Part shown: one piece after another, positions 2,191-41,816 of the stretch
Layout of the letters: every line of letters starts with the position of its first letter
How positions within the stretch are numbered: position 1 is the first letter of the stretch
Source: an uncultured Planctomycetaceae bacterium
GTDB lineage: Bacteria > Planctomycetota > Planctomycetia > Pirellulales > PNKZ01
Direction: 5' to 3'
Length of the DNA stretch: 64,000 nt
NCBI GenBank assembly: GCA_964652155.1
Contig: CAZZBK010000008.1
Coordinates: 15,261 to 79,260 of the forward strand
The notes under the pieces: model-generated
Told to the model about the DNA's origin: nothing
The model's input: the letters and a program-made list of their open reading frames with translations, nothing else
The model's database searches: none
Position numbers and translations under genes: made by a program

Positions 2191-2290
2191 GATCTTTCCT
2201 AAATTCCCTACGTGTGCAAGAATTGAGATTGTAATCACCTGACCATCGTTAGCCAACCGCCCCTCGTTGCTGACGAAATCGAGTAATCAC

Positions 2291-2725
2291 ATGAAAAACG
2301 CAGTTCGCCATGAACCTCCGGCGCGGAAACAACAGGACATTCGCGTGTTCTTGAGCTACGCTCGCCACGATCGCAATCAGGCGCGAACGGTGTCTGACAC
2401 TTTGAAAGCCGCTGGAATCGATGTTTGGGACGCGGCTGAGTCGGTCACCCCGGGCGAGAATTGGGCGCGTTCTATCGGCAATGCGCTAGAAAACTGTAAC
2501 GCCATGGTGGTACTGATTTCTCCGGAGGCGATGAAATCCGATGACGTGAAGCGCGAAATCGAATTTGCCCTGACTGCGCCGAATTTTGCCGACCGGGTGC
2601 TCCCCGTGCTCATCAAGGAAGCTAAAGACGCTCCTTGGATTCTGCGCAACTTCCAGTATTTGCCCTGGAAAAAAAACGTCGGCGAACTCATCGTGCAACG
2701 ATTACAGGCTTCGATTCATGGCTAA
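2291..2725 (+). CDS. TIR domain-containing protein (small, TIR-only)
   Basis: IRVFLSYARHD...AMVVLISPEAMKSDDVKREIEFAL is a TIR_2-like pattern with a conserved Glu. ATG at 2291 lies inside the track ORF 2267-2725. Locally AT-richer. Confidence 0.8.
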   Translation: MKNAVRHEPPARKQQDIRVFLSYARHDRNQARTVSDTLKAAGIDVWDAAESVTPGENWARSIGNALENCNAMVVLISPEAMKSDDVKREIEFALTAPNFADRVLPVLIKEAKDAPWILRNFQYLPWKKNVGELIVQRLQASIHG

Positions 2726-3170
2726 GAAACGTCCGAAATCCAAAGCGGACCTTTCGATCAAGCTGTTTTTGTCACATTCGCATCTGGATGAGGCACTTGC
2801 CCAGCGTCTTGCGGGCGATTTGCGACAGCATGGCATTGAGGTGTGGTATGCGCCGGCCGAATTGCGCGGTGCCGATCAATGGCATGATGAAATCGGCAGT
2901 GCGCTTGAACGGTGCGATTGGATGCTGATTTTACTGTCGCAGCAGGCCATCAAGCCGGAAAATAATCGCTGGATTAAACGCGAGTTGGTGTATGCATTGA
3001 GCGACCCTCGATACGATGGCCATATTTTGCCCGTCGTCGTTGATGATTGCGATCCGCTCGTGTTTTCATGGACCCTCAAGAGCATTCAAACCATCTGGTT
3101 GCATGGTCGCTATACGGCCGGATTGAAAATAATGCTCGACCGCTGGTCCAACTCACCTCGTAAAAAGTGA
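2718..3170 (+). CDS. TIR domain-containing protein (second, tandem paralogue)
   Basis: IKLFLSHSHLDE...WMLILLSQQAIKPENNRWIKRELVYAL. The ATG at 2718 overlaps the upstream stop (ATGGCTAA, 8 nt). The track ORF start at 2586 is rejected because it lies inside the upstream gene. Confidence 0.8.
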   Translation: MAKKRPKSKADLSIKLFLSHSHLDEALAQRLAGDLRQHGIEVWYAPAELRGADQWHDEIGSALERCDWMLILLSQQAIKPENNRWIKRELVYALSDPRYDGHILPVVVDDCDPLVFSWTLKSIQTIWLHGRYTAGLKIMLDRWSNSPRKK

Positions 3171-3173
3171 GAC

Positions 3174-3941
3174 CTAATCGCGAACCAAAACTCGCCCCAC
3201 CAACGCCTCGGCCAACGGGTCGCGAGCCGTGCCGCTAAAGCCCAGGTGCAAGTGTCGCCGCCACCCCTCGGCAAACTCGAAACGCTCGCTGAGCCGCCCG
3301 ACGCTGCGCATCAAATCCTGCATCGTGTGCAAGTACGAATCGAGCCCTTGGCTCTGATCCAACCACAGCTTTTGACTCTGGTGCGCGGCGAGCATCGCGG
3401 TCTTGCTCGCCATCTTCGAGCCCACGTCGACGAACAGCTTGGGGACAATCGCCCCATAGAGCGGGTCGCAGTTGCCGTGCGGTTGGGCATGGTAGACCGT
3501 CACGTCATCGTAATAGGCCGACGTCGGCGGATCGCAGGGAAAATTCGGCATGCACCGCGCAAAGCTCGACGTGACCGCCAACCGGCACGTGTTCGTGTGG
3601 TCTTCCATGTAATCGACCGGTGAATGCGTGAGCACGATCGAGGGACGCACCTCGCGCACGATCGAGGCGAGCCGATACAGCGTGGGCCGATCGTACAGCA
3701 CCTCCATGTCGTGACACAAGCTGTCGTGGAACGTGAAGCCCGCCAACTTGCAGGCCGCTTGCGCCTCGGCGCGGCGCATCGCAATCAGTTCATCTCGGCC
3801 ATAAACCGTCGAGCCGCAGCAGCCGTCGGCGACGTTCATGTAGTGGATATCGAAACCAGCCTCCTGCAACAACAAGAGCGTGCCGGCCATGACAAACTCG
3901 ATGTCGTCCGGGTGCGCGGCAATGGCAAATGCGGTGGGCAT
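3174..3941 (-). CDS. PIG-L/LmbE family N-acetylglucosaminyl deacetylase
   Basis: AIAAHPDDIEFVMAGT metal-binding motif. ATG at 3941 is preferred over the TTG at 3974. Confidence 0.8.
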   Translation of the reverse strand: MPTAFAIAAHPDDIEFVMAGTLLLLQEAGFDIHYMNVADGCCGSTVYGRDELIAMRRAEAQAACKLAGFTFHDSLCHDMEVLYDRPTLYRLASIVREVRPSIVLTHSPVDYMEDHTNTCRLAVTSSFARCMPNFPCDPPTSAYYDDVTVYHAQPHGNCDPLYGAIVPKLFVDVGSKMASKTAMLAAHQSQKLWLDQSQGLDSYLHTMQDLMRSVGRLSERFEFAEGWRRHLHLGFSGTARDPLAEALVGRVLVRD

Positions 3942-20564: not shown

Positions 20565-22385
20565 ATGGTTCCGCAGCAGCTTGGCCCCTATCGTCTCGAT
20601 TCACCCCTGGGCAAAGGGGGCATGGGGACGGTCTATGCCGCCGTCGAGGTGCATACCGGCGAGCGAGCGGCGGTCAAGGTGCTCTCGGCCGCCCTGGGGC
20701 GCGAGGAGGGCTTTTTGGACCGGTTCAGCGCCGAGATCGAAAGCCTTCGCAAACTTCGCCATCCAAACATTGTCCGCCTGCTCGGCTTTGGCGAGGAAGA
20801 CGGCGTGCATTACTACGCAATGGAACTCGTCGCCGGACATAGTCTCGAAGACGAGTTGCGTGCCGGGGCGCGCTACAGTTGGCGGCAAACGGCCGATATC
20901 GGCGCGCAGGTGTGCCGCGCTCTGCGCCACGCGCACGATCGGGGCGTTATTCATCGTGACGTCAAACCGGCCAATCTGCTCCTCAGCCCCGACGGCACGG
21001 TCAAGCTCTCCGACTTTGGCATCGCCAAGTTGTTTGGCAGCTCGGGTCTGACGGGCGATGGCGTGTTGGGGACCGCCGACTATATGTCTCCCGAGCAGGC
21101 CGACGGCCGACCGGTCACGCATCGCTGTGACCTGTACAGCCTGGGAAGCGTCATGTACGCACTGCTCGCGGGTCGTCCGCCATTCCTGGCCAAATCGGTC
21201 GTCGAGATGTTGCAGCTCCAACGCTATGCGGAACCCGAGCCCATTCATCGACTCGTGCGGGGCGTGCCCGACGAGTTCGAGCAACTCCTCGATCTGCTTT
21301 TGCAGAAAGAGCCTGAACGGCGTGTGCCGACGGCACTTGCACTGGCGCGTCGACTCGAGTTGATCCGAGATTTGCCCAGCCCGGTAACGCCTGCAAACCC
21401 GAGCCCGTCGCACGGTTCGAGCGTTGAGTCGGACATCACCCACGAAGGAACCGGAGTCAGCCAGCGCCCCGCAGCCAACGTGGCGTCGACGGCCGTCGAC
21501 GCCACGAGGTCCCCTGCCCCGTCGGTCAATCCCCAGGCCCGGACCGCCTTGCCACGCGACCCTAACAGCGGCCAGCTTGAGACGACGGCACTCCCTTCGC
21601 TGGCCGGAGTGAATGGCAACAGCGGTCGGCTTCGTCCCTTGGGTCAGCGCAGCTTCACGCCCATCGGCGAGATCGACGAAAGTGTCCGCGTCGAACCCCA
21701 TGGCGAGCGGGCCGCGGGTTGGATCTCGCCGCAGACCTGGGCGTTGGTGGCGGCACTGTTGAGCGTCGGGGCCGTGTTGTGGTACCAGCTCCAACCGCCG
21801 TCGGCGAACACGTTGTACCAGCGCGTCAAGCAGGCGGCCGACGAATCGCCCGATCGGCTGCTGCTCGCGGAGCGCGACGTCGAGTCGTTCATCAGTTTCT
21901 ACCCGCGCGACACACGCACCGACGAGGTCGAGCGTTATCAGCAACAGATCGACCGGCTCAAGTTTCGGCAAAAAATGGAGCGACTCGCGCGACGCTTGGC
22001 GGCAGGCGACAAGCTGTCGCCGATCCAGGCCTCGTTCGTCGAATTCATTCGCCTGGAAAACAGCGACTCGCAACGCTGCCGGACGCTGCTGCAAGCCTTG
22101 ATCGATCTGTATCAAGCGGACGAAGAACTGCCCGGAGACGATCGCTTGTGCCTCGACCTGGCTCGACAAAAGGTGGCCGACATCGAAAGCCGCCTGCGCT
22201 CGATTGTTGCCCGAGACGAATTGACCCGCGCACTCGACCAAATCGAGCAAATCTCCGCGAATACGCCGCAGGACGCGGCCCAGCGACTCCGCGCCTTTGT
22301 GCTGCTTTACGAGGGAAAACCGGGCGCCGAGCCGCTTGTCGAGCGGGCCAAGTCCATGTTGGTTAAACTAGCGGATAGCAAATGA
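20565..22385 (+). CDS. Ser/Thr protein kinase, single-pass membrane, with helical C-terminal domain
   Basis: GKGGMGTVY, HRDVKPANLL, DFG and GTADYMSPE motifs. Predicted TM helix WALVAALLSVGAVLWYQL. Confidence 0.92.
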   Translation: MVPQQLGPYRLDSPLGKGGMGTVYAAVEVHTGERAAVKVLSAALGREEGFLDRFSAEIESLRKLRHPNIVRLLGFGEEDGVHYYAMELVAGHSLEDELRAGARYSWRQTADIGAQVCRALRHAHDRGVIHRDVKPANLLLSPDGTVKLSDFGIAKLFGSSGLTGDGVLGTADYMSPEQADGRPVTHRCDLYSLGSVMYALLAGRPPFLAKSVVEMLQLQRYAEPEPIHRLVRGVPDEFEQLLDLLLQKEPERRVPTALALARRLELIRDLPSPVTPANPSPSHGSSVESDITHEGTGVSQRPAANVASTAVDATRSPAPSVNPQARTALPRDPNSGQLETTALPSLAGVNGNSGRLRPLGQRSFTPIGEIDESVRVEPHGERAAGWISPQTWALVAALLSVGAVLWYQLQPPSANTLYQRVKQAADESPDRLLLAERDVESFISFYPRDTRTDEVERYQQQIDRLKFRQKMERLARRLAAGDKLSPIQASFVEFIRLENSDSQRCRTLLQALIDLYQADEELPGDDRLCLDLARQKVADIESRLRSIVARDELTRALDQIEQISANTPQDAAQRLRAFVLLYEGKPGAEPLVERAKSMLVKLADSK

Positions 22386-36647: not shown

Positions 36648-37397
36648 CTACTTGTCGAGGTACGTCACGAACGTGCGTCCCCACCAGCCAACTTGCATGT
36701 GCGGCTCGAACTTGAAACGGCTCCGTTTCTCGAACTCGCGGAAAGCCTTGGCGGGCCCCGTGACCGGCGAGCCTTTGTAGCCGACAAAATACTCGTCCAG
36801 ATAGAGGATCGTTCCTTCTTGCAGGAACGGCTCGATGAAATTGAACACCGGTACCGCCGACTCGTATAAGTCGCAGTCGACATTGATCAGCGACGCCTTG
36901 ACCCCTTGGGAGAGCATTTTTTGCTGCAAGTCGGTCGTCAGGCTGTCCTGATAAAAGCCTTTGACCGTGTGCACGTGATCGACATAAAGGCCGTGCTCGC
37001 GGATCAACTTCATGAAGCTCGCTTCCGAAGTGGATAACGCACCAGGCACGTAGCTGGTCACGCCCGTGGGCAATTCATGTTCCGGGAGTCCTTCGAAGCT
37101 GTCGAACGCGTAAAACCGCATGACGTCGAGTTGGTGCCGTCGCGCTTCGGTGAGCGCCATGCGAAACGTGCGGCAGCGATGGCAGCCGAACTCGAAATAA
37201 TCGCCACCAACTTCGAGCGACGAGATGAAGTCGAACACGTTGACAAAGAAGGCAAGTCGCTGGGAAATGCGATTGCCTTGATTGTAAATGATTTCGTCAT
37301 TTTTGCTCCAATTCGCGAGCTGTTCGCCATTGGCAATTTCGACCCAAGGTTCTTCTCGCAGACGGCGGATCGCGCTGGTGTCATTGAACTGGTTCAT
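36648..37397 (-). CDS. TylF/MycF-like O-methyltransferase (macrocin-O-MT family)
   Basis: GDYFEFGCHRCRT and INVDCDLYES metal-binding motifs are characteristic of the TylF family. Confidence 0.75.
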   Translation of the reverse strand: MNQFNDTSAIRRLREEPWVEIANGEQLANWSKNDEIIYNQGNRISQRLAFFVNVFDFISSLEVGGDYFEFGCHRCRTFRMALTEARRHQLDVMRFYAFDSFEGLPEHELPTGVTSYVPGALSTSEASFMKLIREHGLYVDHVHTVKGFYQDSLTTDLQQKMLSQGVKASLINVDCDLYESAVPVFNFIEPFLQEGTILYLDEYFVGYKGSPVTGPAKAFREFEKRSRFKFEPHMQVGWWGRTFVTYLDK

Positions 37398-37486
37398 AAA
37401 AGCTTATCTCCAAGCATCTGCAATTTAAGGAACACGTATGATTCAACGGCGCGTCAAGCGACGGTTGCCAGACATGTGCTGCCGTC

Positions 37487-38341
37487 TCACGGCCGCGCCA
37501 TAATGTAATTGGCCAGGCTTGTGCCTCTTCCGGTGGGAATGATCTCTTTGAGCTTCTCAACGTATGCGCGAGATTTGAGCAACGCGTATAACTCGATGTG
37601 TGAGTCGAGCGCCAAATCCAACTCGATATGAATCTCATTGATCGTGCGAAGCGACCGCTCCGCGCCGCGAATGACACTCAACTCGTTACCATCGACATCA
37701 ACCTTGAGTTTGGTGGGCGTAGGCAATTTGAACTGCTCGATAGCGTCGTCCAGCGTCATGACCAGCACGTCGATCCTGCCCGCAATTTCGCTTCCCGGGT
37801 TGATGTACGGGGAGGGCTGATGCACGCTGTGCAGCGCGTCGCCCTTCGAGATCCCTTTGAGGTAGAGCGTGTCCAGGGTCGTAACATCTCCCAGCGCCAA
37901 GCAAAGCGGCGTGCAATTCGCTGAAATCCCGTTGAGGAGCACGTTGTCGTAAAAAAGTTGGGCGTTGTTCATTTCCGCCTCGAATCCGAACGCTCGCACG
38001 CCCCGCTTGGCTGCATACAGGCTGTACGTACCGATATTCGCGCCGATATCGTAAAAGCAGTCATCGCCACTAAACCCGTCAATCCAATGGATGATGCTGG
38101 GTTCGAGCGTCTCGGCTTCCATCGCGCGCCAAAGCAACCGGCCATGACCGGTGCGAAAGCGCAGCTTGACACCACTTTGAAAAGAGGTCTCAATCTGCGG
38201 ATCGAGGCACTGAATGAATTCGTTGCTGAATCGATTCCGGCCGTTCAGTCGCAATACGCCGATGATAGCCCGCGCAAACCAGCGATACAGCCGGATATTC
38301 GGTGTCAATACAAAGGTCGTCTGCTGTGATGGAGTATTCAT
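37487..38341 (-). CDS. FkbM family methyltransferase
   Basis: FYDIGANIGTYSLYAA...AFGFEA pattern. Confidence 0.8.
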   Translation of the reverse strand: MNTPSQQTTFVLTPNIRLYRWFARAIIGVLRLNGRNRFSNEFIQCLDPQIETSFQSGVKLRFRTGHGRLLWRAMEAETLEPSIIHWIDGFSGDDCFYDIGANIGTYSLYAAKRGVRAFGFEAEMNNAQLFYDNVLLNGISANCTPLCLALGDVTTLDTLYLKGISKGDALHSVHQPSPYINPGSEIAGRIDVLVMTLDDAIEQFKLPTPTKLKVDVDGNELSVIRGAERSLRTINEIHIELDLALDSHIELYALLKSRAYVEKLKEIIPTGRGTSLANYIMARP

Positions 38342-38435
38342 TATGCCAGCGGTGTCAAGAGATATTCACGGTGGACGACAAGTGAGACCCATAAAGCAAT
38401 TGCATGGATACAGGGTTTATCAACTCCCCCATCGG

Positions 38436-39422
38436 TCAATCTAAATATAACGAATACGCCATCGGCTCGGGTGCGAGGGAGCCTAACTGTTCACACAATC
38501 CAGCCAAATTGGGCATCTGCGACGAGATCGCCACGACATCGGTATAACCCCACGGTCGTCGCGCCACGTCCTGGATCGTTTGCACGTAATTTTGCGGCGT
38601 GATTCGGTTGAACACGAACGGATGCGGAATATAGCCCACGTCGAACAGCGCATACGTGTTGAGTAACTCGGCAAAGAGTTGCTGCATGTCTTGCTGGGCC
38701 GCGTGAAACTCGATTGCAAAGGCGTGCGGATAATTGATGCCGCTCTGCAACACATCGGCCACAATTCGCCGTTCCAGATTTTCGGTGTCGAGCTTGATAA
38801 ACGCGCTGCGCACCTCCTGCTCTCGCATGAAGGTCGACAGTCGGCCCGATTGGACGATCGTATTGGCTTGCGCGCCGATGCTGGCCGACGACGAGTCGCT
38901 ATGCTCGGGTCGTTGATAAAACGTCAGAAATCCATCATAGTCTGAAACCGCTTGCGGCACCCACTGCACCCACCGCTCCAACCCGTTCGCTTGAATGTTA
39001 TAGGGGATGAGTTCGCCCGAGACCGACGGATCAAAGCAAAACACGCGCCCGGCATGCCCGAGCGTGCGAAAGAAATTGGCATAACGCATGCCCACGTCAC
39101 CCACAAACGCGCCAACGTCCAAGAAGTCGACGCTCAGCCCGTGCCGAATCATGTGCCAGAGTATCAGATAGAGCCCATGCCGCGCTGCGTTCACCCGATC
39201 CAGATTCTCGAACGACACGGGACTGCGCGCATAGCCGCGACTAGCGACCTCGCGGTAAAATCCGTCGATGGGAAACCGCTTACAGGCCTCGGGGACCGAG
39301 ATGCGATAGAGATTGTCGGCGGCGAGCATAAATGCCTTGATATCGCCCAGATTGACAAAGTCGACCCCTTCGGCCGCAAACCAGCGGTTCGGCAAGGCAT
39401 CGGACTTAGGTGAGCCGTTCAT
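38436..39422 (-). CDS. FkbM-like methyltransferase
   Basis: FLDVGAFVGDVGMRYANFF...VFCFDPS pattern. More divergent than the neighbour. Confidence 0.65.
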   Translation of the reverse strand: MNGSPKSDALPNRWFAAEGVDFVNLGDIKAFMLAADNLYRISVPEACKRFPIDGFYREVASRGYARSPVSFENLDRVNAARHGLYLILWHMIRHGLSVDFLDVGAFVGDVGMRYANFFRTLGHAGRVFCFDPSVSGELIPYNIQANGLERWVQWVPQAVSDYDGFLTFYQRPEHSDSSSASIGAQANTIVQSGRLSTFMREQEVRSAFIKLDTENLERRIVADVLQSGINYPHAFAIEFHAAQQDMQQLFAELLNTYALFDVGYIPHPFVFNRITPQNYVQTIQDVARRPWGYTDVVAISSQMPNLAGLCEQLGSLAPEPMAYSLYLD

Positions 39423-39483
39423 GGGATCTCCGGAAATGAATGGTGTTCAAAAGGCATGTTGGCGACAGCGAGCCTCGTGGTCT

Positions 39484-40707
39484 TCATGCTTGGCTTGCCA
39501 TGCATTGGTAAAATTCACCCAATCGTTGGGATACGCCCTGGATATCAACGGCTGAAAACCGGTCGAGCGAGTACTCAAACTGGTTGTTCATGGCGCGCTG
39601 TAGCACGCTTCGCGGATCACGAAAGAACGACGCATCCGCGTTCACGACACCGGTGCCATAGCGACGAGCCAAGGAGTGCTGGAAACGTTGCCCAGGGTGA
39701 TGAATCACGCCGATCCCCGCTGAGATAAAATCAGCCACGCGCGACGAACCACAGCCCTCAATCGCCTCAGGCGCGATGTTGTCGAACGGTTCTTCCATTG
39801 CGAGTCGATCCGTGACCGCCGTGCCATAATCATAGCGCGTCAGCATCCGCCAGTAATCATCATCATAGACTTGGTCTTCAATGTGAAAATACGGCGTCAT
39901 ATATTGCAAGCGATAATAATCGGTCGCGTCAGGGTGACCCTGGAACTGATGCAAGTTGAAGTAGAGATGAACATGGATTTGATGTGCGCTGAGAATCTGG
40001 AACACACGCAACATGCTGCAATCGCCGCCGCCAACCCAGCCGATGCTGACGACATGGATCTCGCCCGGTGTATGCGGTTTCCGATGCGGTTCAATGCCCT
40101 CGGGCAAATGCCACAGGGGGTCATGCAAGAAGATACTGCGACGAGGTCGTTCGTAGCCCCGCTGTCGAATGAGGTACCGAATGCGCAGGTCGCGATACAC
40201 GAAGCCGTCGGCATTCGCAATGCACCACCGTTCCAGCATGTGACGCTGTATCGGCTCGTTCTTAAACTCACTACAAGGGTCATAAATATCCAGAATCACC
40301 GGCTTGGTCTTGTACGTCAAATACAAAGCGGCCTGATCGCCAAACGGCGTGAACAAATGCACGATCGGACCAGGAAACAGCCATTGTGCCAGCAGCAACA
40401 GCAGATGATTCTGCACGACGTGAGCAATATGAAAATGATCGCGAACATTAAATTTCGGCTGGTTCAGGGTCACCAAGATCGGCGTCCAGCCCGCCTGACG
40501 TGCGGCCTCCGCCAAGCGAATCTCTCGGCTATGGGTCACGATGGACAAGAACAAGACCGATCGGGCTCGCACCTCGGGGGGGAGCGAAGCAAACGACTGA
40601 ACCAACTGCGGACAAGCCTGTTCGAGCACCGCGCGCGCAAATTCCGCGCGGCCCTCAGTTGGTATTTGAGGGAGCAAAACTTCCAGCGGCTGGCCGTTAA
40701 CAATCAC
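39484..40707 (-). CDS. Hypothetical protein (407 aa), possible GT-B-like fold; no family recognised
   Basis: Its GTG start overlaps the upstream stop (GTGA at 40704-40707), so it is co-translated with the sugar genes. No motif I can name. Confidence 0.6.
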   Translation of the reverse strand: MIVNGQPLEVLLPQIPTEGRAEFARAVLEQACPQLVQSFASLPPEVRARSVLFLSIVTHSREIRLAEAARQAGWTPILVTLNQPKFNVRDHFHIAHVVQNHLLLLLAQWLFPGPIVHLFTPFGDQAALYLTYKTKPVILDIYDPCSEFKNEPIQRHMLERWCIANADGFVYRDLRIRYLIRQRGYERPRRSIFLHDPLWHLPEGIEPHRKPHTPGEIHVVSIGWVGGGDCSMLRVFQILSAHQIHVHLYFNLHQFQGHPDATDYYRLQYMTPYFHIEDQVYDDDYWRMLTRYDYGTAVTDRLAMEEPFDNIAPEAIEGCGSSRVADFISAGIGVIHHPGQRFQHSLARRYGTGVVNADASFFRDPRSVLQRAMNNQFEYSLDRFSAVDIQGVSQRLGEFYQCMASQA

Positions 40708-41816
40708 TTGAGCTTCTCGGCGATGTCAAAGGCCTGGGCAATGCAGTCGTCGATGTCGATGTAGCGGTAGCTGCCGGCCCGACCAATCGAGAAGACCCTC
40801 TCGGGCATCAGGTCGAAATACTTCTTGGCCAGCGCCCGCTCGCTTTTGATCGGCATGGCATAGTGCTTGCCGTTCATCGAAGGAAACTCGATGCCGATGA
40901 GCGTCGTCGGCGACTTATGCTGAGTGAACTTTTTGTACTCGACAATCCGTTTGTATTTTTCCTGGCCCGAGTAGTACAAAAAGAACACGTCGTCGGGAAA
41001 GCATTGCTCCATCGGCAGCACGATCGGGTGGAAGTCGAGTCCGACGAATCTCAGTTCACCGAAGCAATACTCGAAGAGAATGTCCGGTGCGATCGTGTTG
41101 ATGACCACGTCGTAGGTTTGCCATTCTCCTTTGAGCTTGACGCGACGTTGGGGGATGTCGTACTGCTCGATCTTCGTGGCCAGATGAACCTTGACATCGG
41201 CCGTTGAGATGCCGAAGTAATCGTCGTAGCCGTTGGCCGCGTAGGGGTAGGCCGTGATGCGGTCGGTAAAGCTGGCCCGGGCACCCGTGTGCAGCAGCGC
41301 ACCTTTGCTGGTCCAGGCCGGGACGGCATCGTCCAGCTCTTTGTTGCTGTCGACGAGCCACATCTTTTTATTGTAATACTTGCCAAACTTCTCATAGAGC
41401 GTGGGCCCCACCGATCCCAACCAGTAATCTTCGAGATTGGCCGAGGCCTCGCCGGTCGTCGCGGCCGCCAACTCGCGCTTAATCTGGTCGCGGTCGGGCA
41501 TTCGCTCGATGTCGTCGACGTGCATCGGAAAGTTGTAAAACTCTTGGTCGCGCTCCACATAGGTGAGAAACACATGCTTCAGCGGTCTGAGCGGCACATA
41601 CTGGTTCAGGAAGTGAAACAGCCGCTCGTCTTCCGTCAGAAAGTGTCGCGGGCCGAACGTGTGGGGATGCCCGCCGTACCATTGCGTGCGCACTCCCGCG
41701 CCCAGGAACGGGGCAGCCTCGACCAGCGTGACGTCCCAGCCGCCTTGCAACACCAACTGATGGGCGGCCGCGCAGCCGGCAAATCCACCGCCAATAACCA
41801 ATGCTGTTTTTTTCAT
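40704..41816 (-). CDS. UDP-galactopyranose mutase-like FAD enzyme (nucleotide-sugar pyranose/furanose mutase)
   Basis: ALVIGGGFAGCAAA FAD fold. C-terminal GRAGSYRYIDIDDCIAQAF parallels the Glf motif GRLAEYKYYDM. Size 370 aa. Confidence 0.7.
   Translation of the reverse strand: MKKTALVIGGGFAGCAAAHQLVLQGGWDVTLVEAAPFLGAGVRTQWYGGHPHTFGPRHFLTEDERLFHFLNQYVPLRPLKHVFLTYVERDQEFYNFPMHVDDIERMPDRDQIKRELAAATTGEASANLEDYWLGSVGPTLYEKFGKYYNKKMWLVDSNKELDDAVPAWTSKGALLHTGARASFTDRITAYPYAANGYDDYFGISTADVKVHLATKIEQYDIPQRRVKLKGEWQTYDVVINTIAPDILFEYCFGELRFVGLDFHPIVLPMEQCFPDDVFFLYYSGQEKYKRIVEYKKFTQHKSPTTLIGIEFPSMNGKHYAMPIKSERALAKKYFDLMPERVFSIGRAGSYRYIDIDDCIAQAFDIAEKLK

What the first reader, a model, noticed from the sequence alone, without database searches (positions are those of the whole stretch)
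2267..3170. Tandem, overlapping TIR-only genes on an AT-richer islet between housekeeping genes
Seen:
- Two ~145-150-aa ORFs each consist of little more than a TIR domain (IRVFLSYARHD...; IKLFLSHSHLDE...).
- Each has a Glu in the position I take to be the conserved NADase glutamate (DDVKREIEFAL; NRWIKRELVYAL).
- The second ATG overlaps the first stop (ATGGCTAA, 2718-2725).
- They form a plus-strand insert between minus-strand lpdA and the PIG-L gene.
- A hand count of line 2701 gives about 45 % GC.

Established knowledge: bacterial TIR proteins are NAD+-cleaving signal generators or effectors in Thoeris and other antiphage systems, and ThsB genes often occur in multiple copies.

Inference: this may be an orphan TIR pair whose effector is elsewhere, a self-contained two-TIR module, or a non-defence function.
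Basis: partly seen in the sequence, partly recalled or inferred. Interest (0 to 1): 0.65.

Follow-up and report, generated by a model that had tools for sequence, protein, structure and literature searches.

The report
Conserved two-gene TIR–TIR operon
Two small overlapping genes that each encode only a TIR domain belong to a two-gene operon found in hundreds of uncultured bacterial species; one partner keeps an intact NAD-cleaving active site, the other has a decaying one, no third gene accompanies them, and I found no description of such a system.

Summary
TIR-A (2291-2725, 144 aa) and TIR-B (2718-3170, 150 aa) are TIR_2-only paralogues, 30% identical, overlapping in ATGGCTAA. They sit on a 52.8% GC stretch between lpdA-like and PIG-L genes of about 62% GC.

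The pair is not a local oddity. A profile of TIR-B found relatives in 360 species genomes from at least 10 phyla. In 79 of the 80 best loci an A-type gene lies immediately upstream on the same strand. No third gene recurs, and neighbours are mostly housekeeping genes.

The partners are asymmetric:
- B keeps the WxxxE catalytic motif in 83/83 sequences and resembles the bacterial NADases AbTir, BtTir and PdTIR.
- A keeps WxxxE in only 18/82 and the Glu in 60/82. This window's copy reads DxxxE.
- A's BB-loop and Pro-Trp motifs are near-invariant, and it matches MyD88/TLR-type TIRs about as well as bacterial ones.

A natural A→B fusion exists. A relative has an empty site. Against its closest relative, the pair is far more diverged than its flanks but under purifying selection.

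Best reading (inferred): a self-contained heteromeric TIR NADase module, not Thoeris. It is a new variant of a known kind. No function has been tested.

The parts
2291..2725 (+). TIR-A gene (144 aa), the upstream, scaffold-like TIR-only paralogue
   Evidence: The ORF is. Pfam TIR_2 scores 85.8 bits. The AF2 model has pLDDT 86.4, and its top Foldseek hits are TIR domains: Hydra TRR-2, TLR1, SPARTA TIR, AbTir. The start is taken as ATG 2291 because the close relative L004 shares the 'MKN' start; gene callers also proposed GTG 2345.
2718..3170 (+). TIR-B gene (150 aa), the downstream, enzyme-like TIR-only paralogue with a basic N-terminal tail (MAKKRPKSK)
   Evidence: The ORF and gene call are. 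Pfam TIR_2 scores 76.9 bits. The AF2 model has pLDDT 76.1, and its top Foldseek hits are BtTir, TcpB/BtpA, PdTIR and AbTir. The profile's best PDB sequence hits are AbTir at 1.7e-14 and BtTir at 1e-12.
2718..2725 (+). 8-nt start/stop overlap ATGGCTAA, consistent with translational coupling of A and B
   Evidence: The sequence is. Across 81 loci the A stop lies 4-56 nt (median 38) upstream of B's FLSH core. Candidate B start codons listed within 90 nt of that core fall from -41 to +49 nt of the A stop, most within a few nt to about 40 nt.
2970..2984 (+). TIR-B WxxxE motif (W85-I-K-R-E89), the predicted catalytic centre
   Evidence: W and E are each 83/83 invariant among B orthologues, and neither residue was part of the search pattern. 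They align to AbTir W204 and E208 (residue roles).
2877..2897 (+). TIR-B BB-loop/αB motif Q54-W-H-D-E-I-G60
   Evidence: Near-invariant, but this motif was the pattern used for the genome scan, so its invariance there is biased. It is also invariant in the independent protein-search set. W55 aligns to AbTir L177, an active-site contact.
2543..2557 (+). TIR-A position equivalent to WxxxE, here D85-V-K-R-E89: Glu present, Trp absent
   Evidence: Across 82 A orthologues the Glu column is E 60, D 9, N 8, A 3. The Trp column is W in 19. A full WxxxE is present in 18 of 82.
2450..2464 (+). TIR-A BB-loop motif P54-G-E-N-W58
   Evidence: P 72/82, G 81/82, N 74/82, W 67/82. It aligns to the 'PG' BB-loop of MyD88 and TIR-STING in the profile-to-PDB alignments.
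2191..2290 (.). 100-nt divergent intergenic region between lpdA (-) and TIR-A (+)
   Evidence: The only sigma-70-like site found (TTGGCT-17-TACAAT, 2256-2228) is on the minus strand and faces lpdA. No plus-strand promoter-like site and no terminator-like site was found between 2100 and 3400. The region is highly conserved with L004.

Best explanation
TIR-A and TIR-B are the two subunits of a self-contained, horizontally mobile but chromosomally stable two-gene module that encodes a heteromeric TIR enzyme.

- **TIR-B is the catalytic subunit.** It has an AbTir-like NAD+ glycohydrolase/cyclase pocket with an invariant WxxxE.
- **TIR-A is a diverged paralogue whose own active site is dispensable.** Its BB-loop and Pro-Trp (DE-region) surfaces are conserved. 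TIR active sites are built from two TIR domains joined head to tail through the BB-loop (BE interface). I therefore infer that A pairs with B through this interface and controls or completes B's assembly.
- **Co-production.** The two are made together by translational coupling, A first.
- **Output.** With no linked effector, the most likely output is NAD+ cleavage by the complex itself, either depletion or a cyclic-ADPR-type product. I infer this is switched on by higher-order assembly in a conflict setting such as abortive infection or stress.

**Shown:** the anatomy, the conservation of the pair, the asymmetry of the active sites, the absence of a linked third gene, and the accessory and fast-diverging nature of the pair.

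**Inferred:** physical A-B interaction, enzymatic activity, the trigger, and the biological role.
For: **A conserved two-gene unit**
- A B-profile scan found 360 species genomes. In 79 of the 80 best loci an A-type gene is immediately upstream on the same strand.
- All six loci reached from the A side also have B downstream.
- The A stop lies 4-56 nt from B's core.
- Pairwise identities of A and B are correlated, r = 0.69.
- A natural A→B fusion exists (P0101, 288 aa, and P0241, 292 aa, from two independent sources). It has two TIR_2 stretches in operon order.

**Catalytic asymmetry**
- B has W85 and E89 in 83/83 sequences. A has WxxxE in 18/82 and lacks the Glu in 22/82.
- The B profile hits AbTir (1.7e-14), BtTir and PdTIR, but MyD88 only at 7e-3. 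The A profile hits TIR-STING (1.8e-12), MyD88 (6e-11) and TLR6/1 as well as or better than bacterial TIRs. Fold searches agree.
[quoted passage not shown] E208 is essential, W204 is needed for cyclisation, and BB-loop mutants are inactive (WxxxE also).
- A's most conserved residues are the BB-loop PGxNW and the PW motif, not catalytic ones.

**Self-contained**
- No neighbour family recurs outside closely related genomes.
- The immediate neighbours of 69 loci hit 175 different Pfam families, with a maximum recurrence of 3. Among the 25 most recurrent families shown, none is a SIR2, SLOG or Macro effector domain.
- Apart from one model matched by two neighbours (mad8), the PADLOC hits shown are singletons.
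- Among the 25 PADLOC families shown for the window's 59 other ORFs, none is a Thoeris effector; 35 families matched in total.

**Functional and accessory**
- dN/dS for A is about 0.1, and pN for B is 0.17.
- The pair's GC is below that of its flanks in 68 of 81 loci.
- An empty site exists in L094.
- DNA identity to L004 averages about 69% over the pair, against about 82-97% in the flanking genes, with sharp edges.
Against: - No experiment exists for any member, and I found no paper on it.
- The loci are not defence islands, the usual signature of immune genes: at most a few of 138 immediate neighbours gave PADLOC hits, and these include generic kinase-type models. The neighbours are core genes such as lpdA, icd, uppS/cdsA, priA, rph/recO, atp and sodA. 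This would also fit a physiological role.
- No copy was found on plasmids, phages or IMG/VR viral contigs, and no flanking repeats were found.
- The pair is syntenic within close relatives: window and L004, and three Pyrinomonadaceae genomes.
- One locus (L024) has an intact B and no A within 1 kb, so A may not be obligatory.
- In this window A still has the Glu, so it could be active.
- The A-B contact is not modelled.
Confidence: 0.45

Rival explanations
1. Orphan Thoeris-like signal generators. One or both TIRs sense infection and make a cyclic-ADPR-type messenger for an effector encoded elsewhere in the genome.
For: - B's invariant aromatic Trp plus Glu is the signature associated with cyclic-ADPR-producing TIRs.
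- ThsB proteins are also small TIR-only sensors and can occur in several copies.
- A passes the Pfam ThsB_TIR cut-off weakly, 27 bits against 21.2.
Against: - No effector is adjacent in any of about 75 distinct loci, and none shows up in the PADLOC output for this 64-kb window. Known Thoeris types are defined by a TIR gene next to its effector.
- ThsB and Thoeris type III models score far below their cut-offs: NCBIfam ThcB4 gives 36.8 bits against 220, and B gives 12.5 bits on ThsB_TIR.
- The strict A→B heteropair with one degenerate site is not explained by simple ThsB multiplicity.
Confidence: 0.15
2. Classical toxin-antitoxin (addiction or persistence) module. B is an NAD+-depleting toxin, and A is a labile paralogous antitoxin that neutralises it by capping its TIR-TIR interface.
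For: - The layout is two small genes with the putative neutraliser first and start/stop overlap.
- The pair is scattered singly among core genes and patchily across phyla, with lower GC.
- The upstream partner is degenerate and the downstream partner is intact and enzyme-like.
- From my own knowledge, not checked here, NAD+-targeting toxins are established in other folds, such as MbcT and RES. The NatR-NatT abstract is one such example.
Against: - A has no DNA-binding or other typical antitoxin domain.
- A stable natural A-B fusion exists in two independent records, which fits poorly with a selectively degraded antitoxin.
- An intact solitary B exists in L024.
- No copies were found on plasmids or phages.
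Confidence: 0.15
3. A non-conflict physiological role: a heteromeric TIR enzyme or regulator acting on NAD(P)+ or a related nucleotide for metabolism, dormancy or signalling in environmental bacteria.
For: - The neighbours are almost all housekeeping genes.
- Synteny is retained among close relatives.
- Purifying selection is strong.
- In 60 of 77 cases the nearest relative of a pair is from the same phylum, so much of the inheritance is vertical.
Against: - Only 360 of 185,579 species genomes matched.
- An empty site exists in a relative.
- The pair is far more diverged than its flanks at the same site.
- Its composition is atypical in 68 of 81 loci.
- There is at least one near-identical pair (87%) across proteobacterial classes.
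- These are features of accessory or conflict genes.
Confidence: 0.2
4. Non-enzymatic scaffolding pair: heterotypic TIR-TIR adaptors with no catalysis.
For: A's profile similarity to MyD88 and TLR scaffold TIRs. TIR domains can act purely as scaffolds.
Against: The absolute conservation of B's WxxxE in 83/83 sequences, and B's closest relatives being proven NADases, are hard to explain without catalysis. There are no partner domains to scaffold.
Confidence: 0.05

Closest known systems
AbTir / BtTir / PdTIR / TcpB(BtpA)-type bacterial TIR NADases
   Same: These are the closest relatives of TIR-B by profile (E 1.7e-14 to 7e-8) and by fold. They share the αC WxxxE motif, with B's W85 and E89 aligned to AbTir W204 and E208. 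Their active site is expected to form between two TIRs across the BB-loop (BE) interface.
   Different: From my own knowledge, those proteins carry N-terminal coiled-coil or other regions, act as homo-oligomers, and are single genes. TIR-B is TIR-only with a short basic tail. In all but one locus examined it is preceded by a distinct TIR paralogue. Sequence identity is only about 21-25%.
Thoeris systems (ThsB TIR plus effector; types I-XI)
   Same: Small TIR-only proteins, sometimes in several copies, that can sense infection without an added sensor domain and make NAD+-derived signals.
   Different: There is no adjacent effector of any kind and no defence-island context. Thoeris-specific HMMs fall below their cut-offs, apart from a weak ThsB_TIR hit for A. 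The unit is a fixed heteropair with one degenerate active site.
Plant paired TIR-NLRs RRS1/RPS4 (analogy only)
   Same: Adjacent genes encode two different TIR domains that associate (abstract). From my own knowledge, the TIR lacking catalytic competence restrains or regulates the signalling-competent one.
   Different: They are eukaryotic NLRs with NB-ARC, LRR and WRKY domains, and the genes are head to head. No homology exists beyond the TIR fold. The resemblance is a lead, not a test.
Animal scaffold TIRs (MyD88, TLR1/6, Hydra TRR-2) and metazoan TIR-STING
   Same: TIR-A's profile and model match these as well as or better than they match bacterial enzymes. They share a BB-loop 'PG' and a conserved aromatic motif in the DE region.
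   Different: TIR-A has no receptor, death or STING domain. It is bacterial, it retains a Glu at the catalytic position in 73% of orthologues, and its partner is an enzyme-type TIR.
NAD+-targeting toxin-antitoxin modules (MbcTA, RES-Xre, NatRT)
   Same: A two-gene overlapping operon dispersed among chromosomal core genes, in which the downstream product is predicted to consume NAD+ (the NatR-NatT abstract is; the others are from my own knowledge).
   Different: The folds are unrelated. In those systems the antitoxin is not a paralogue of the toxin. Here a natural fusion and a solitary B argue against a labile antitoxin.
Sensor-fused TIR effectors (SPARTA TIR-APAZ, TIR-SAVED, TIR-STING, Cat1)
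   Same: They give the best PADLOC hits: SAVED_TIR at 5e-16 for A, and Aga_TIR (short-Argonaute-associated TIR) at about 1e-10 for both. From my own knowledge and the papers listed, these are NAD+-depleting TIRs activated by oligomerisation.
   Different: The hits cover only the TIR part. No APAZ, SAVED, STING or CARF domain and no Argonaute or cyclase gene is present.

Membership tests
TIR domain superfamily (Pfam TIR_2, PF13676) | Profile match above the curated gathering score over the whole domain | tested here: met
   A scores 85.8 bits and B 76.9 bits against a cut-off of 28, covering profile positions 1-110 and 2-118 of 122.
TIR domain superfamily (Pfam TIR_2, PF13676) | Alternating strand-helix TIR fold | tested here: met
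   The AF2 models show alternating strands and helices (pLDDT 86 and 76). All top Foldseek PDB hits are TIR domains at probability 1.00, with TM up to 0.75.
Catalytic (NAD+-cleaving) TIR enzymes | Conserved catalytic Glu in the αC helix (WxxxE) - TIR-B | tested here: met
   B's W85 and E89 align to AbTir W204 and E208 and are invariant in 83/83 orthologues.
Catalytic (NAD+-cleaving) TIR enzymes | Conserved catalytic Glu in the αC helix (WxxxE) - TIR-A | tested here: inconclusive
   The window copy has E89, but D85 in place of the Trp. Across orthologues the Glu is kept in 60/82 and the full WxxxE in 18/82.
Catalytic (NAD+-cleaving) TIR enzymes | Measured NADase or cyclase activity dependent on that Glu | not testable with these tools
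   This needs biochemistry. No member of either family appears in the PDB or in the literature searched.
Thoeris (types I-XI) | TIR (ThsB) gene in an operon with an effector gene (SIR2-SLOG, Macro, caspase-like, DUF2270, TM and others) | tested here: not met
   No recurrent neighbour was found. The immediate neighbours of 69 loci hit 175 Pfam families, with none of these effector domains among the 25 most recurrent shown. PADLOC on the neighbours and on the window's ORFs showed no ThsA-type model among the families listed.
Thoeris (types I-XI) | Match to ThsB-specific models above the cut-off | tested here: inconclusive
   Pfam ThsB_TIR gives A 27.0 bits (cut-off 21.2) and B 12.5 bits (below it). 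NCBIfam ThcB4 gives 36.8 and 15.6 bits against 220. PADLOC ThsB hits are partial, at E 1e-7 or weaker.
Thoeris (types I-XI) | Enrichment next to known defence genes | tested here: not met
   At most a few of 138 immediate neighbours hit defence models, and some of those hits are generic kinase-type models. The rest are housekeeping genes.
Type II toxin-antitoxin modules | Two small co-directional genes with start/stop overlap, neutraliser first | tested here: met
   There is an 8-nt overlap here. The A→B order holds in 79 of 80 loci, with the A stop 4-56 nt from B's core.
Type II toxin-antitoxin modules | Antitoxin with a DNA-binding or otherwise recognised antitoxin domain | tested here: not met
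   A is a complete TIR domain and nothing else.
Type II toxin-antitoxin modules | Toxin harmful without its antitoxin | not testable with these tools
   This needs expression tests. One intact solitary B (L024) and a stable A-B fusion lean against it.
Sensor-fused TIR effectors (SPARTA, TIR-SAVED, TIR-STING) | TIR fused to, or encoded next to, APAZ/Argonaute, SAVED or STING | tested here: not met
   The PADLOC hits cover only the TIR portion of those models. No such domain is present in A, B or among the neighbour families shown.

The most novel reading that the evidence does not exclude
The pair is a minimal bacterial 'adaptor plus enzyme' TIR system. A scaffold-type TIR (A) nucleates or gates, through heterotypic BB-loop contacts, the assembly of an enzyme-type TIR (B). 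The complex acts alone as an NAD+-depleting or signal-producing abortive-infection or stress switch. Defence-island-based discovery would have missed it, because it sits singly among core genes of uncultured phyla.
Probability: 0.3. Interest if true: 0.8.

Novelty: new variant of a known kind. Interest (0 to 1): 0.62.

Why it matters
Bacterial TIR proteins are studied as homo-oligomeric NADases or as the signal generators of Thoeris. This would be a widespread, fixed heteropair of TIR paralogues with a division of labour: one catalytic, one interface-only, and no other component. It could give a two-protein model, each about 145 aa, for how heterotypic TIR-TIR contacts control catalysis, a question also open for plant paired TIR-NLRs and for animal TLR/adaptor TIRs. 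The pair sits outside defence islands and only in uncultured lineages, so guilt-by-association screens would not have found it. If it does defend against phages, that points to a blind spot in such screens. If it does not, it would be a TIR enzyme with a physiological role, which is equally informative.

Tried and rejected
- **A-B complex model.** Model coordinates are not exposed, so I could not check whether B's two invariant Cys (C66, C111) are close together.
- **Mobile-element carriage.** tblastn of B against plasmids and phages found no match. The B profile found no relative in IMG/VR viral contigs.
- **Insertion scars.** No direct or inverted repeats flank the pair beyond chance-level matches of 10-13 nt. 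No tRNA and no Rfam family is present in the window.
- **Expression signals.** The sigma-70 and terminator scan found nothing on the plus strand, only a promoter-like site facing lpdA at a chance-level count. This is uninformative for Planctomycetes.
- **Empty-site search.** A scan for PIG-L relatives returned 80 loci. Only one (L094) retains lpdA next to PIG-L, so insertion versus deletion cannot be polarised.
- **Apparent N-terminal extensions of A.** The long ORFs in L029, L053 and L030 carry no extra Pfam domain and are most likely ORF-extension artefacts in GC-rich DNA.
- **Top scorers in the exhaustive protein search.** These are giant proteins with 3-7 TIR domains, at least one of which also carries WD40-like repeats. 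They rank high by summed score and belong to a different family from B.
- **The excess dS of the pair.** I considered whether it reflects only weaker codon bias (GC3 0.58 against about 0.8). That can explain part of it. However, the pair is saturated (pS 0.69-0.85) while the flanks are not (pS 0.36-0.42), and DNA identity drops sharply at the pair's edges.
Full report
**1. What is in the window**

Two plus-strand ORFs lie between a minus-strand lpdA-like flavoprotein gene (766-2190; Pyr_redox_2 and Pyr_redox_dim) and a minus-strand PIG-L deacetylase-family gene (3174-3941).

- TIR-A runs 2291-2725 (144 aa from the ATG). TIR-B runs 2718-3170 (150 aa).
- B's ATG overlaps A's TAA in ATGGCTAA (2718-2725).
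- Both proteins match Pfam TIR_2 over essentially their whole length (85.8 and 76.9 bits, cut-off 28) and contain nothing else.
- They are paralogues, 30% identical, E 8e-23.
- AlphaFold models (pLDDT 86.4 and 76.1) show the strand-helix alternation of TIR domains. All top Foldseek PDB hits are TIR domains.
- The pair is 52.8% GC, against about 62% for both flanking genes.
- GC3 of the B ORF is 0.58, against 0.75-0.86 for most genes of the window.
- B's stop and the PIG-L stop are 3 nt apart, and no terminator-like structure is present.

**2. The pair is a conserved two-gene unit**

- Protein searches found about 75 A-like and 15 B-like proteins. All are TIR-only and 102-160 aa long.
- Every contig I opened from the A side carries a second TIR_2 gene immediately downstream, in unrelated contexts:
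  - icd/ABC transporter in a Verrucomicrobiae MAG;
  - Tricorn-like/zf-CDGSH;
  - UDG/priA in an Acidobacteria MAG;
  - rph/recO;
  - a symporter/sodA near atp genes.
- A back-translated B-profile scan of one genome per species matched 360 of 185,579 species genomes. They belong to Planctomycetota, Verrucomicrobiota, Acidobacteriota, Gamma-, Beta- and Alphaproteobacteria, Cyanobacteria, Gemmatimonadota, Bacteroidota, Nitrospirota and Binatia. All are listed as MAGs.
- In 79 of the 80 best loci an A-type gene, classified with HMMs built from the two families, lies directly upstream on the same strand.
- The A stop is 4-56 nt (median 38) from B's conserved FLSH core, so the two are overlapping or nearly abutting everywhere.
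- Pairwise identities of A and B are correlated across loci, r = 0.69.
- An exhaustive profile search found a natural A→B fusion of 288 aa with two TIR_2 stretches in operon order. It is present in two independent records.

**3. No third component**

- Clustering of 553 neighbouring ORFs found no family shared beyond closely related genomes. The only syntenic set is three Pyrinomonadaceae genomes, where the pair sits between uppS and cdsA.
- The immediate neighbours of 69 loci hit 175 different Pfam families, none more than three times. They are overwhelmingly housekeeping enzymes, and no SIR2, SLOG or Macro domain appears among the 25 most recurrent families shown.
- PADLOC models matched only a few of those neighbours.
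- In this window, the other 59 ORFs gave PADLOC hits essentially from one Hanks-type kinase, plus one MkoA-like hit. No Thoeris effector appears among the families shown.
- The rest of the window is housekeeping plus a glycan-biosynthesis cluster.

**4. The two partners are not equivalent**

Across 83 B sequences the αC motif W85-x-x-x-E89 is invariant. These residues were not in the search pattern.

In the profile-to-PDB alignment they fall on AbTir W204 and E208, and B's W55 falls on AbTir L177. The residue numbering was checked against the AbTir paper. That paper reports the following (WxxxE also):
- E208A is dead.
- W204 is needed for ADPR cyclisation.
- L177 and W204 sandwich the substrate mimic.
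- BB-loop mutants lose activity.

Across 82 A sequences the same Glu column is E 60, D 9, N 8, A 3. The Trp column is W in only 19, and a full WxxxE survives in 18. The copy in this window reads D85-V-K-R-E89.

A's near-invariant residues are instead the BB-loop P-G-x-N-W (P54-W58) and a P-W motif after βD (P115-W116).

B is the more conserved partner, with mean pairwise identity of 56% against 40% for A.

Against solved structures:
- The B profile is closest to the bacterial NADases AbTir, BtTir and PdTIR (1.7e-14 to 2e-12) and barely sees MyD88 (7e-3).
- The A profile is closest to a metazoan TIR-STING, MyD88 and TLR6/1 (1.8e-12 to 1e-9), on a par with bacterial TIRs.
- The fold searches give the same split.

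**5. Evolutionary behaviour**

- The closest relative (L004, a Planctomycetaceae MAG) has the pair at the same site.
- Its flanking proteins are 97% (lpdA), 90% (PIG-L) and 91% (SpoU) identical to the window's. TIR-A and TIR-B are only 72% and 75% identical.
- Synonymous sites are saturated in the pair (pS 0.69 and 0.85) but not in the flanks (pS 0.36-0.42). pN is 0.17 for both TIR genes, and dN/dS for A is about 0.10, so both are under purifying selection.
- DNA identity falls from about 82-97% in the flanks to an average of about 69% over the pair, with sharp edges near 2300 and 3200.
- Weaker codon bias in the pair explains part of the dS excess. The pattern is still that of a deeply diverged allele embedded in conserved flanks.
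- A somewhat more distant relative (L094; lpdA 86%, PIG-L 75%) has the two housekeeping genes adjacent with about 120 nt between them and no TIR genes.
- The pair's GC is below its flanks in 68 of 81 loci, by 3.8 points on average.
- The nearest relative of a pair is from the same phylum in 60 of 77 cases. Within-phylum identity (52%) barely exceeds between-phylum identity (47%). One Paracoccaceae pair is 87% identical to a Pseudomonadales pair.
- No copy was found on plasmids, phages or viral contigs, and no flanking repeats were found.

Together this describes an old accessory module, inherited vertically over short ranges and transferred occasionally.

**6. How it most likely works**

*Shown:* a fixed A→B operon, tight coupling, a natural fusion, an invariant catalytic motif in B, a decaying one in A, conserved interface elements in A, and no linked effector.

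*Established knowledge:* TIR NADase sites are composite, built from two TIRs joined head to tail via the BB-loop.

*Inference:* A and B form a hetero-oligomer in which B supplies the catalytic pocket and A supplies or gates the partner surface. The complex itself consumes NAD+, through depletion or a cyclic-ADPR-type product, when it assembles further. The setting is probably a conflict one, such as abortive infection or stress.

I favour a stable regulatory or structural A subunit over a labile antitoxin, because a fusion exists and one intact solitary B exists. Overall confidence is 0.45. My component estimates are:

| Component | Estimate |
|---|---|
| Conserved cassette | about 0.97 |
| B catalytic | about 0.8 |
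| A non-catalytic partner binding B | about 0.6 |
| Conflict role | about 0.5 |

The rivals are an orphan Thoeris-like signal generator (0.15), a classical toxin-antitoxin module (0.15), a physiological non-conflict role (0.20) and a pure scaffold (0.05).

**7. Comparison with known systems and novelty**

- Membership in the TIR superfamily is met.
- Membership in Thoeris is not. There is no adjacent effector and no defence-island enrichment, and the Thoeris-specific models mostly fall below their cut-offs.
- No NCBIfam equivalog, PADLOC system model or specific Pfam family covers either protein.
- Five full-text searches, including the 2025 systematic survey that defined Thoeris types V-XI, turned up no description of a TIR-TIR-only operon. 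That survey states that it discarded standalone TIRs not in multigene operons and selected clusters enriched near defence genes.
- I rate it a new variant of a known kind: known chemistry and fold, undescribed two-paralogue architecture.

**8. Limits**

- There is no biochemical or genetic evidence for any member.
- The A-B interface is not modelled.
- The 80 loci examined are the best-scoring ones found with a B-motif pattern. The invariance of QWHDEIG there is therefore biased, but that of WxxxE is not.
- All carriers are MAGs, so occasional binning or assembly errors are possible.

Noticed in passing
P0091 (1773 aa), P0121 (1572 aa) and about 100 similar proteins: The top scorers of the exhaustive B-profile search are giant proteins with 3-7 tandem TIR domains. 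P0121 and P0091 also carry WD40-like repeats, and many of the others have a first TIR-B-like stretch at about residue 233-350. They belong to a different family from the pair, but they show that tandem TIR arrays within one polypeptide are common.
   Followed up: partly
L024:5689-6450 (Longimicrobium sp. MAG): This is the only one of the 80 loci without an A gene. An intact B-type TIR with all catalytic motifs is preceded by an unrelated 274-aa ORF, and no A-like sequence lies within 1 kb upstream.
   Followed up: partly
L085 (Paracoccaceae MAG) versus L067 (Pseudomonadales MAG): Their A+B pairs are 87% identical across proteobacterial classes. This is either a recent lateral transfer or a MAG binning error.
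   Followed up: no
window 3168-3176: The stop codons of TIR-B (+) and the PIG-L gene (-) are only 3 nt apart, with no terminator-like hairpin. The convergent transcripts must overlap. In the empty-site relative L094, PIG-L and lpdA are co-directional and about 120 nt apart.
   Followed up: partly
window 36648-41816: A second AT-richer stretch (54-56% GC) holds glycan-modification genes on the minus strand: TylF-like and FkbM-like methyltransferases and a UDP-galactopyranose mutase. It also holds two ORFs with no Pfam match (38436-39422 and 39484-40707). It adjoins a sugar-nucleotide cluster with epimerase, RmlD, NTP_transferase and DegT hits.
   Followed up: partly
window 20565-22385 (+): A 606-aa Hanks-type Ser/Thr kinase (HRDVKPAN motif) probably accounts for the strong PD-T4-6/mad6 PADLOC hits in the window. 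It is probably a generic planctomycete kinase rather than a defence gene.
   Followed up: no
TIR-B residues C66 and C111 (window 2913-2915 and 3048-3050): Two cysteines are each conserved in 81 of 83 B orthologues, alongside conserved H20 and H56.
   Followed up: no
P0209 (291 aa) and P0238 (281 aa): These are fusions in the opposite order: a B-like TIR at the N-terminus followed by a second, different TIR-like domain. They suggest other heterotypic TIR-TIR combinations exist.
   Followed up: no
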